64,000 bases of DNA, taken from NCBI RefSeq assembly GCF_902652985.1, contig NC_047018.1, forward strand, positions 47,616,001 through 47,680,000. Direction: 5' to 3'. Position numbers and translations under genes: made by a program. Positions 18,170-43,320 of the stretch are shown in pieces. Source of the DNA: Pecten maximus. Taxonomy: Eukaryota. Within the stretch, counting starts at the first letter, position 1; each line of letters opens with the position of its first letter. The notes below the pieces were generated by a model, which did no database searches, had not been told where the DNA came from, and saw only the letters and a list, made by a program, of their open reading frames with translations.

Positions 18170-18270
18170 AGAGTTCGGCAGAAATATGTTAGCAGACAAC
18201 TACAGTTCGGCAGAAAAGAGTGTACCAATTATCCCCAAGAGGGGGCGCTGTATTTCCAAGATGGCAGCCT
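18170..18270 (+). promoter_or_regulatory. TRIT1 proximal promoter motifs
   Basis: Direct repeat AGTTCGGCAGAAA at ~18172 and ~18204, CTCF-like CCAAGAGGGGGCGC (18235-18248), and YY1-like CAAGATGGCAGC overlapping the ATG at 18261. Confidence 0.45.
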
Positions 18271-18386
18271 CCATGCGACTGCCCGTGGTGGTGATTTTGG
18301 GATCAACTGGGACAGGAAAATCGAAGTTGGCACTTGAGCTAGGGAAGATTTTTAATGGAGAAATCATTAGTGCCGATTCCATGCAG
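18261..18386 (+). CDS. TRIT1: tRNA dimethylallyltransferase exon 1 (P-loop)
   Basis: [42 protein letters not shown] matches the MiaA/Mod5/TRIT1 N-terminus. Phase-0 donor CAG|GTCACT (weak). Confidence 0.93.
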
Positions 18387-21497: not shown

Positions 21498-21665
21498 AAA
21501 TGAACATACAAGGTACTTAAAAATTTGCTTAAACAGCCACTATTTTGGATTTTAACGTTTAGGAATTTGTTATTTCTCCATACTGGTATCCGTGGAAGGA
21601 AATGTTATGTATGAGTCCTGGTTTTGTTTGCCACATTTAGAACTTTGTTTTTGATTTATTTTCAG

Positions 21666-21806
21666 GTCTACAAGGGGTTAGACATCAGCACAAATAAAGT
21701 GACAGCTGAAGAGTTAAGGCAATGTCCCCATCACATGATCGACTTTCTCAGTCCTCTGACCAGGAACTACACCGTCACTGACTATAGAGATGCCACACTA
21801 CCTATT
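21666..21806 (+). CDS. TRIT1: TRIT1 exon 2 (141 nt)
   Basis: ttcag|VYKGLDISTNKVTAEELRQCPHHMIDFLSPLTRNYTVTDYRDATLPI|GTATCCTT. Confidence 0.95.
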
Positions 21807-22563
21807 GTATCCTTTTGTTTGTCTCTTACGGATGGTCCAGTGATGCTGGAAATTAGGGATGCTGGAAATAAGGAATGCTGGAAATTAGGGATGCTGGAAA
21901 TAAGGGATGCTGGGAATTAGGGATGCTGGAAATATGGACTTCAAGGATTTGTGTTAAGCTGCAGTTTCTCAAAATATATAGCTGTTATTCTAACCAAACT
22001 TTAGAATATAACTGGTAGAGAGAATTCAATTCTTTTTATTGAAGTTTGTATTGTAACAGGGGGTATTGTGTTTCATAGAATTTTAAATTCAATGCTAAAA
22101 TCAAAAGGCAATGTCTCTCTTCAAAAGTTGACTGTCCAATACGCAGACATCTTTAAAATATAAAAATATCAAATTTATGAAAATATAAAAATATCAAATT
22201 TAACAAAGAAATTCATAAAATGATGATTCTGTTTCACGGGTACAGATAAGATTTCAAGTACATGTATTTTTAAACAAAACTGATGAAGCCTCGCATATAG
22301 AGGCGAAACCAGTCGACAAATAAATTATAAGTAACCCACTTACCTGGTGACACTTGTCCTTGTTACCTCCCCCCTCTTTATATTTAAACAAGATAGTAAT
22401 GATTAATTTTTAATAAGTTGGTACATGGAGTTATATCTTGTTTCAGATTGACCGACTTGTAATAGAGGGTAAATTTTGTTTTGATAAAATAAATTACCTG
22501 GTTTATTGTATAAATGATTTACTATTAATAAGTTGTGAGTTATATACTTAACTCTTGTGTCAG
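21807..22563 (+). other. TRIT1: U12-type (minor spliceosome) GT-AG intron 2 of TRIT1
   Basis: 5' splice site GTATCCTTT; branch site TACTTAAC ending 11 nt before the exon; no real polypyrimidine tract. Confidence 0.9.
22280..22381 (+). mobile_element. Penelope-like element terminal fragment with a minimal type I hammerhead ribozyme core
   Basis: CTGATGA-A-GCCTC(GCATATA)GAGGC-GAAA-C-CA-GTC followed by AATAAA. A near-identical inverted copy lies at 40630-40740. Confidence 0.75.
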
Positions 22564-22662
22564 ATTGACCGACTCCTGAAGCAGGAAAAGCTCCCAATCA
22601 TTGTTGGAGGCACCAGCTACTACATAGAATCCCTCCTGTGGAACTTCATCGTTACTAAGCAG
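22564..22662 (+). CDS. TRIT1: TRIT1 exon 3 (99 nt)
   Basis: IDRLLKQEKLPIIVGGTSYYIESLLWNFIVTKQ|GTAAAA, containing the conserved IVGGT.YY motif. Confidence 0.95.
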
Positions 22663-23739
22663 GTAAAATACTTCCCTGGTAAAACAGGTAAATTTATTTC
22701 ATTCCACAATTACCGATTATCTTACTTTAAACACCAGTAAATATGTTGAATATAATTGTTTTTTTTGCCACAAACATTCAACATACTGCCTTGATGAAGA
22801 AATTTAACCTCAATTTTTTAGCCCAAAATGTGATGATGGTGGGCTATTAAAATTGTATATTGTCCATGGCCCATGGCCTAGCTAAAATATTACTTCAGAA
22901 GTACAGGAAAGATATTTATCATATTTGATATACGTGCCTGATCAGTTAAAAAAAACAAATAATAAGCCCATCCATATCTATTTCACTTTCGATAAAAATT
23001 GCAATTTTCGTTATCCTGCAATAACCCAACCCCCGTCTTCAGTCAAAGTGTAGGTGTTATACCCGTGGGCTTTCATACCCCTGGGCTTTCTATAGAATAA
23101 AAACGGTTCATTTAACGAAAGTGTGACTGTCGAAGGTGTGGGCCACTTGACCTTTGGTGCCAGATTCGTAACTAACCCTGATAAAAATAGATAAAAATAA
23201 TCACAATGTCCATATTTTTTTAATCACTTGAAAAGCACTCGAGAGCCACTTTGGTTATGGATTGACTGGCGATCTCTACTCCAGTATGTCACAACACTAA
23301 CGTCAGAGCAATACAGAATGAAGTGGCAACAAAAGAATTTCATTGTAGAAATTAACATTTCACAGTATATAAAAATTATGTAATGTTCAGTAACCGGTCA
23401 ATTTTGTCCTGATATGAATATAAATAGTATTTAATCTAATTAACGCACAAATGTTCAAGAGAGGTGTACACGTAAAAGGAATGTAAAAGGAGCGGGTCAT
23501 TGTAGCTTGTATATCGAGTTAAATACGGTCTGTGGCGCTCAGTCGATGGAGCATATTTTGGCTTAGACTGGCCACATGTCTCTAGAATATTAGAATTATA
23601 AATTGAATTGAGCTTTATGATTTTGGTTCACTAGGATTTGTCTGATTCTATGGTCAAACTAGGAGGGGGTAGTCTAGTATTTGAATTTAGTGGAGCAATT
23701 CTGACAAAAAACTTTGACTCAGTAGCATGTTTCTTTGAG

Positions 23740-42763: not shown

Positions 42764-42873
42764 GCCGAGGCGCTAACACATTACCTGTATATGGACTGGA
42801 TGTCTCTGATGTCTCTCAATGGGAGGACCGTGTGAAAACACCAGCTGTGGAAGTCCTAACGGATATTTTACAG
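42764..42873 (+). CDS. TRIT1: TRIT1 exon 9 (110 nt)
   Basis: ttccag|RRGANTLPVYGLDVSDVSQWEDRVKTPAVEVLTDILQ|GTAAAA, with the PVYGL.VSD...W motif. Confidence 0.93.
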
Positions 42874-43320
42874 GTAAAATTACAGGCTATAGAGATTCTC
42901 AACAATATTTTACAGGTAAAATTACAGGCTATAGAGATATTCAACAATATTTTACAGGTAAAATTACAGGCTATAGAGATTCTCAACAATATTTTACAGG
43001 TAAAATTAATTACAGGCTATAGAGATTCTCAACAATATTTTACAGGTAAAATTACAGGCTATAGAGATTCTCAACAATATTTTACAGGTAAAATTACAGG
43101 TTATAGAGATTCTCAACAATATTTTACAGGTAAAATTACAGGCTATAGAGATTCTCAACAATATTTCACAGGTAAAAATTACAGGCTATAGGGATTCTCA
43201 ACTACATTTTACAGGTAAAAATTAGAGGGTCATGAGAACAATATTTTACAGGTAAAAATTACAGGGTATTGAGATTCTCAACAATATTTTACTGGTAAAA
43301 TTACAGGGTATTGAGATTCT
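42863..43320 (+). repeat. 42-bp tandem repeat (~10-11 copies) containing the exon 9 splice donor
   Basis: Unit atattttacag|gtaaaattacaggctatagagattctcaaca. Confidence 0.95.

What the first reader, a model, noticed from the sequence alone, without database searches (positions are those of the whole stretch)
22411..22574. Duplicated U12 acceptor that lacks exactly the branch-point octamer
Seen: the real acceptor is taataagttg-t-gagttata-TACTTAAC-tcttgtgtcag|ATTGACCGACT. A copy 117 nt upstream reads taataagttg-gtacatg-gagttata-tcttgtttcag|ATTGACCGACT and lacks precisely the U12 branch site. Using the copy would add 39 in-frame codons with a stop that falls in the real branch site. A GG|GTAAAT donor at 22468/22469 could make it a 22-nt poison micro-exon. 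Inference: either selection silenced a competing minor-class acceptor, or it is a U2-type decoy linking minor-spliceosome activity to NMD of TRIT1.
Basis: partly seen in the sequence, partly recalled or inferred. Interest (0 to 1): 0.7.

Follow-up and report, generated by a model that had tools for sequence, protein, structure and literature searches.

The report
Decaying copy of minor-intron acceptor
In a scallop tRNA-modifying gene (TRIT1), the end of a rare minor-class intron is duplicated just upstream of itself; the copy differs in spacing and form between two chromosome versions and is likely unused, decaying DNA rather than a splicing switch.

Summary
Scallop TRIT1 intron 2 (21807-22563) is a GT-AG U12-type intron. 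A 60-nt copy (22398-22457) of its last 51 nt plus 11 exon nt lacks the branch octamer. Contigs from two DNA samples reproduce it letter for letter, so it is not an assembly artefact.

A second haplotype, about 9% diverged, also carries the duplication. There the spacer is 24 nt, not 55, so the offset is 86 nt (out of frame), not 117. Its copy lies on the real acceptor over the full 62 nt, so the deletion is probably specific to one haplotype; its branch letters could not be read.

The one RNA run with a positive control shows only the normal junction, but contigs drop rare forms. No strong U2 donor lies upstream to pair with the copy. Such duplications occur about once per 10 kb here, and another TRIT1 splice site is also tandemly copied.

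Best reading: a decaying pseudo-acceptor (0.62). Selection for branch-site loss 0.25; regulated poison exon 0.06. The scan noted duplicated U12 acceptors before in other genomes.

The parts
18261..18386 (+). TRIT1 coding exon 1; its U2 donor is the nearest strong major-class donor upstream of the copy
   Evidence: tblastn 100% to P0001 aa 1-43; boundaries; donor 7 of 9
21666..21806 (+). TRIT1 exon 2 (141 nt)
   Evidence: 100% identical to Pecten maximus and Ylistrum balloti proteins; Pfam IPPT 1-44
21807..22563 (+). 757-nt GT-AG U12-type intron 2, donor GTATCCTTT
   Evidence: only GTATCCTT on the + strand of the window; RNA contig joint 21806->22564, GT..AG
22280..22386 (.). Fragment of a dispersed repeat with paired inverted ends, unclassified; present in the window haplotype, skipped by the second haplotype
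   Evidence: 40 matches listed in the genome; alignment of copies; joint 22260->22513 in X2
22398..22457 (+). Upstream copy (pseudo-acceptor): AG at 22445-22446, 11 exon-like nt 22447-22457, 6 extra nt within 22421-22427, branch site missing between 22435 and 22436
   Evidence: best U12 pairing at branch spacing -1.9 kcal/mol, rank 35 of 39 AGs in the intron
22458..22512 (+). 55-nt spacer (24 nt in the second haplotype) holding the donor-like AGG|GTAAAT at 22468|22469; origin unresolved
22513..22574 (+). Original unit: branch site TACTTAAC 22545-22552, AG 22562-22563, first 11 nt of exon 3
   Evidence: U12 pairing -5.9 kcal/mol, rank 2 of 39
22564..22662 (+). TRIT1 exon 3 (99 nt)
   Evidence: tblastn 100%; Pfam IPPT 48-75; RNA contig

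Best explanation
The end of TRIT1's minor-class intron 2 is duplicated just upstream of itself, and the copy is likely a splicing-silent pseudo-acceptor that decays like ordinary intron DNA. Shown: the duplication covers at least 51 intron and 11 exon nt, exists in two diverged haplotypes in different forms, and lacks a U12 branch site in the window haplotype. Inferred: it arose by local tandem-type duplication before the haplotypes split and before the neighbouring repeat inserted. Inferred: the minor spliceosome, starting at the U11 donor and needing a branch site 11-13 nt from the AG, skips the copy and uses 22564. Inferred: the 8-nt loss is a later lesion of one haplotype, and a copy with only 11 exon nt was already a poor competitor (role of exon sequence in duplicated-acceptor choice recalled, not tested).
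For: Second haplotype: joints 22260->22513 (62 nt laid, 17 letters between) and 22574->22513 (42 nt laid, 24 letters between) on one 418-nt X2 contig. A 1448-nt X3 contig of the same sample also jumps from 22260 past the repeat. Spacer, offset and frame therefore differ between haplotypes. Copy-versus-original divergence (4 of 54) is close to haplotype divergence in the adjacent intron (23 of 264). Base rate: 20 two-copy short-range duplications in 214,685 unmasked bases, 7 of 20 with a gap of 5 nt or more. 2 of the 20 TRIT1 splice boundaries in the window are straddled by local copies. A random 8-nt deletion in the unit removes both branch adenosines in 7 of 55 placements and falls between core and AG in 24 of 55. 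RNA run X9 shows only 21806->22564. U12 geometry: PMC3584512 (passages).
Against: The exact placement has only 2 of 55 chances. Two indels of 5 nt or more against 4 substitutions is more than the window-versus-C138 rate predicts (11 per 314 substitutions; about 0.14 expected, Poisson P about 0.01 by hand; blastn undercounts large indels and the two may be one event). The second haplotype's branch letters were not read, and 3 indel rows were hidden, so a balanced gap pair or a point mutation in its branch site is not excluded. The donor-like GGGTAAAT is present in both haplotypes. The copy has a U2-like pyrimidine stretch (10 of 14). RNA evidence is 1 run with a positive control, as contigs.
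Confidence: 0.62

Rival explanations
1. Selection removed a competing minor-class acceptor: the fresh copy drew splicing into a premature stop, so only haplotypes that disabled its branch site persisted. The copy has no function, but its lesions are not random.
For: The deletion removes both branch adenosines and keeps the flanks. Use of the copy gives a stop in both haplotypes (for the second, read by eye from the letters). The duplication has persisted in two deep haplotypes. The second haplotype's copy must carry further substitutions, since it did not seed on the window's copy.
Against: The second haplotype's copy appears full length (62 of 62). Selection would accept any disabling change, so the neatness of the deletion adds nothing. 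An earlier scan note reports an intact U12 decoy in another genome (e1-7931703, not checked here).
Confidence: 0.25
2. The copy is a U2-type decoy or 22-nt poison micro-exon that couples minor-spliceosome activity to NMD of TRIT1, working like a twintron.
For: Pyrimidine-rich AG (10 of 14). Donor 7 of 9, as good as most real donors of the gene and present in both haplotypes. Predicted frameshift and stop. Cryptic exons inside minor introns occur in mouse and human (PMC6717393, passages).
Against: No donor of 7 or more of 9 in 21666-22446; pairing would need exon 2 skipping or a weak site. The AG-free zone is 14 nt, against 22-57 nt for 9 of 10 real acceptors (the tenth is 3 nt). Spacing is not kept between haplotypes. 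Such donors occur 4.5 per kb. Retention alone gives a stop. No such junction in X9.
Confidence: 0.06
3. The duplicate is an assembly artefact.
For: The assembly holds a haplotig of the same gene (C138) and the window lacks exon 4, so the region is not simple.
Against: Contigs of two samples match the window across the copy with 0 differences, and a second haplotype has its own version.
Confidence: 0.02

Closest known systems
Short tandem duplication across an exon-intron boundary (Lehmann et al. 2010, PMC2891723, passages)
   Same: A local duplication copies a splice signal; unwanted products would meet NMD; the spare copy is free to decay.
   Different: There, duplicated coding sequence with an AG/GY proto-splice site becomes a new intron. 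Here the copy falls inside an existing U12 intron and no intron is gained.
Twintrons and nested U2/U12 introns: prospero, SRSF10, MAPK8/9, TMEM87a/b (PMC8329584, parts 2-3 of 6 read)
   Same: Major-class-like sites lie inside a U12 intron and could yield an unproductive isoform.
   Different: Those have a complete U2 donor-acceptor route and observed isoforms. Here the upstream U2 donor is missing, no isoform was seen and spacing differs within the species.
USSE of SNRNP48 and RNPC3 (PMC3584512 passages; PMC8329584)
   Different: USSE is a tandem U12 5' site with conserved spacing that activates an upstream U2 acceptor in genes of minor-spliceosome proteins. This is a copied 3' site with variable spacing in a tRNA-modifying gene.
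Cryptic or pseudo splice sites near minor introns (PMC8329584; PMC6717393, passages)
   Same: A weaker look-alike site, unused normally, that may be activated when minor splicing fails.
   Different: This one has a traceable origin as a copy of the true acceptor.

Membership tests
U12-type GT-AG intron (intron 2 itself) | Conserved 5' site GTATCCTT | tested here: met
   21807
U12-type GT-AG intron (intron 2 itself) | Branch site able to pair with U12 snRNA | tested here: met
   TACTTAAC pairs with the genome's U12. The energy alone is unspecific: 3 of 9 U2 acceptors score better in the wider scan.
U12-type GT-AG intron (intron 2 itself) | Branch site 11-13 nt from the 3' end | tested here: met
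   13 and 12 nt from the two adenosines; optimum from PMC3584512
U12-type GT-AG intron (intron 2 itself) | Spliced by the minor spliceosome in vivo | not testable with these tools
   The junction is used; which spliceosome makes it was not shown. Human TRIT1 is listed as a minor-intron gene (PMC7507305, passage); the intron position was not compared.
Functional U12 acceptor (upstream copy, window haplotype) | Branch site at 11-13 nt | tested here: not met
   rank 35 of 39 AGs, -1.9 kcal/mol
Functional U12 acceptor (upstream copy, second haplotype) | Branch site at 11-13 nt and intact AG | tested here: inconclusive
   62 letters laid on 62 positions; letters not displayed or 25
Twintron or poison exon in a U12 intron | U2 donor upstream to pair with the internal acceptor | tested here: not met
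   none at 7 or more of 9 in 21666-22446; four at 6 of 9
Twintron or poison exon in a U12 intron | Alternative isoform seen in RNA | tested here: inconclusive
   0 of 3 RNA contig sets cover 22393-22512 uniquely; only X9 had exons in the stretch as control; contigs drop rare forms
Twintron or poison exon in a U12 intron | Conserved arrangement | tested here: not met
   spacer 55 versus 24 nt within the species; other species' introns could not be obtained
USSE | Tandem U12 5' splice sites | tested here: not met
   a single GTATCCTT on the + strand
Local duplication straddling a splice boundary | Two nearby direct copies holding intron end and exon start | tested here: met
Intron gain by tandem duplication | Duplicated exonic AG/GY proto-splice site yielding a new intron | tested here: not met
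   the junction reads CAG|ATT and the copy lies within the existing intron

The most novel reading that the evidence does not exclude
Two old alleles of one minor intron segregate in the scallop: one whose upstream copy keeps a working U12 branch site and acceptor (predicted stop after 9 codons) and one that has deleted it. This would be a natural allele pair showing how the minor spliceosome chooses between tandem acceptors and catching selection silencing a decoy.
Probability: 0.2. Interest if true: 0.55.

Novelty: new member of a known kind. Interest (0 to 1): 0.24.

Why it matters
As a decaying duplicate it is ordinary for a highly polymorphic bivalve genome. Its value is as a test case. 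How the minor spliceosome picks between two branch-site/acceptor units is little studied: PMC3584512 (passages) says alternative U12 3' sites are rare and of unclear status. If the second haplotype keeps an intact copy, a heterozygous animal tests this within one cell by allele-specific junction counts. A regulated poison exon would add TRIT1 to a short list of minor-splicing sensors, but the evidence does not point there.

Tried and rejected
1. Second haplotype in the assembly: haplotig C138 holds only exon 4 onward, and 22400-22760 has 1 match in the genome.
2. Reading the second haplotype's copy by laying contigs on 22195-22512: the copy did not seed there and the loose-end row was among 6 not shown.
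3. X5 (third sample) has no cover at 22419-22457; a hole proves nothing. X6 and X12 have no cover at 22393-22512 but had no exon control.
4. Orthologous introns: the genome search has no relatives here. The metagenome scan returned 80 of 235 loci whose match spans and identities looked like compact, distant homologues; I judged them from the table only and did not use them.
5. Origin of the spacer: no significant match to the upstream flank with the repeat left out (962 of 2000 shuffles as good), weak to the repeat (160 of 2000), 8 of 21 to the exon continuation, single-copy in the genome search. A by-eye likeness of its translation to exon 3 of a relative is not supported.
6. The repeat as cause of the duplication: rejected, because the second haplotype has the duplication without the repeat.
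7. Annotated isoforms: P0001-P0005 and P0024 all show the normal junction.
8. Literature: 'TRIT1' + 'minor intron' gave 1 paper; others (0 papers) listed nothing on this duplicate by title or abstract start. No supplements were read, and TRIT1 rows in supplements of PMC6717393 could bear on cryptic use in mammals.
9. One donor (43879) is probably misplaced by my script and is not relied on.

Full report
Gene and intron. The exon at 21666-21806 translates 100% identically to tRNA dimethylallyltransferase (TRIT1) models of Pecten maximus and Ylistrum balloti and matches Pfam IPPT, as does the exon at 22564-22662. The intron between them is 757 nt, starts GTATCCTTT and ends with TACTTAAC 12-13 nt before the AG, which fits the U12-type definition and the 11-13 nt optimum (PMC3584512, passages). 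The genome holds two U12 snRNA genes. Human TRIT1 is listed among minor-intron genes (PMC7507305, one passage). An RNA contig of run X9 joins 21806 to 22564.

The observation. The copy 22398-22457 matches 22513-22574 with 4 substitutions in 54 columns, 6 nt extra and 8 nt missing; 0 of 2000 shuffles reach its score. The gap fits at 22545 or 22546. Splicing to 22447 would add 39 codons with a stop at codon 35, and a 22-nt exon would frameshift to a stop early in exon 3. Among the 39 AGs of the intron, the real one ranks 2nd and the copy 35th for U12 pairing at branch spacing. This measure is unspecific: 3 of 9 U2 acceptors pair better than the real site in the wider scan.

Not an artefact. Of 24 runs listed I laid 7, all as contigs. 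X1 has one contig over 22335-22760 with no difference; X2 has one over 22379-22554 with no difference. X1 differs from the window at 21656, so it is probably not the window's own haplotype throughout (inference). X5 has a hole over the copy.

A second haplotype. X2 also holds a 418-nt contig: 273 letters on 21997-22260 (23 substitutions, 9 gap letters), 17 other letters, 62 letters laid on 22513-22574, 24 other letters, then 42 letters on 22513-22554; these sum to 418. The 24 letters begin like the window's spacer at 22458 and keep GGGTAAAT. X3, the same sample, has a 1448-nt contig that also leaves at 22260. So the duplication is shared, the repeat at 22280-22386 is not, the spacer is 24 instead of 55 nt, and the offset is 11+24+51 = 86 nt. 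By eye, the read-through there meets TAA at codon 10. The tool had both the window's copy and the real acceptor on offer and laid this copy on the real one, at full length. I infer, at about 0.8, that it lacks the 8-nt deletion. This is not proven: mismatches near piece ends are not listed, 3 indel rows were hidden, and the attempt to expose the letters failed. That failure implies extra substitutions near the 3' end of that copy (inference).

How unusual is it? In 264 kb (window plus 20 neighbouring loci; 214,685 bases after masking arrays) a blastn self-scan found 20 two-copy duplications within 300 nt, this one among them near the score cut-off; 7 of 20 have a gap of 5 nt or more, and the units cover 0.8% of bases (uncurated). 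In TRIT1, 2 of 20 boundaries are straddled by local copies: this acceptor and the donor at 42873, repeated about 11 times. An 8-nt deletion placed at random in the unit equals the observed one in 2 of 55 placements, removes both adenosines in 7, touches the core in 13, and falls between core and AG in 24. The substitution load of the copy (7%) resembles haplotype divergence (9% nearby; 314 of 6434 between window and C138). Against simple decay, two large indels for four substitutions exceed the C138 rate (11 per 314; P about 0.01 by hand), though one compound event would explain both.

The decoy idea. The copy has a U2-like pyrimidine stretch (10 of 14) but an AG-free zone of 14 nt. A U2 route needs an upstream U2 donor; none reaches 7 of 9 in 21666-22446, leaving exon 1's donor or weak sites. 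The proposed donor scores 7 of 9, like 124 of 1,656 GT sites in 18400-46000. Retention already gives a stop at 21918. Known regulatory cases (USSE, prospero, SRSF10, TMEM87) show observed isoforms, and USSE keeps its spacing conserved (PMC8329584, parts 2-3). RNA evidence here is thin: X9 shows only the normal joint; X6 and X12 show no cover at 22393-22512 without an exon control; contigs drop rare variants.

Mechanism. Shown: anatomy, reality, presence in two haplotypes, normal splicing in one run. Inferred: a local duplication older than the haplotype split; later insertion of the repeat and loss of the branch site in the window's lineage; bypass of the copy because U12 acceptor choice depends on the branch site. 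The origin of the spacer is unresolved. If the window's missing exon 4 is real and in phase, this allele is predicted null, which would further weaken a selective reading; structural polymorphism is widespread in bivalves including P. maximus (bioRxiv 10.1101/2020.09.15.298695, passages).

Novelty. I found no paper on this duplicate (searches; listings only). The scan holds three similar notes from other genomes and none near this place or for this sequence; I did not check them. Verdict: a real, new instance of a known kind, interest 0.24, with one open and cheap question: the branch-site letters of the second haplotype.

Noticed in passing
window 36212-36238 versus G000:C138:5972-8945 (L012, L031): The window lacks about 3 kb holding the 389-nt TRIT1 exon 4 (C138:7117-7505), replaced by 25 unrelated letters; no 25-mer of the missing stretch is in the window. 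Skipping it would frameshift. Either a null deletion allele or a misassembly; the P0001 model lacks these residues and has a short unrelated stretch there.
   Followed up: partly
window 42863-43320: A TRIT1 donor (42873) is tandemly repeated about 11 times as a 42-nt unit of 11 exon and 31 intron nt; the array is also on C138.
   Followed up: partly
window 22280-22386 and 40627-40741: Two fragments of one unclassified dispersed repeat whose copies elsewhere form inverted pairs up to about 1.1 kb apart; each is missing from the other haplotype at that place.
   Followed up: partly
window 22259-22266: The palindrome TACATGTA, apparently shorter in the second haplotype, resembles a Tc1-type excision footprint (recalled). 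It occurs 10 times in the window against 2.8 expected, and the 6 extra letters in the copy resemble it.
   Followed up: partly
window about 12033-13446: A bHLH gene (Pfam HLH) that looks like MYC by recalled motifs lies just upstream of TRIT1, as MYCL does beside TRIT1 in vertebrates (recalled, not tested).
   Followed up: no
window 22683-22695: A second donor-like CAG|GTAAAT lies 25 nt behind the exon 3 donor; not significant as a duplicate.
   Followed up: no
G000:C5:10024646-10033579 (L135, L136): Two nearly identical U12 snRNA genes 8.8 kb apart.
   Followed up: no
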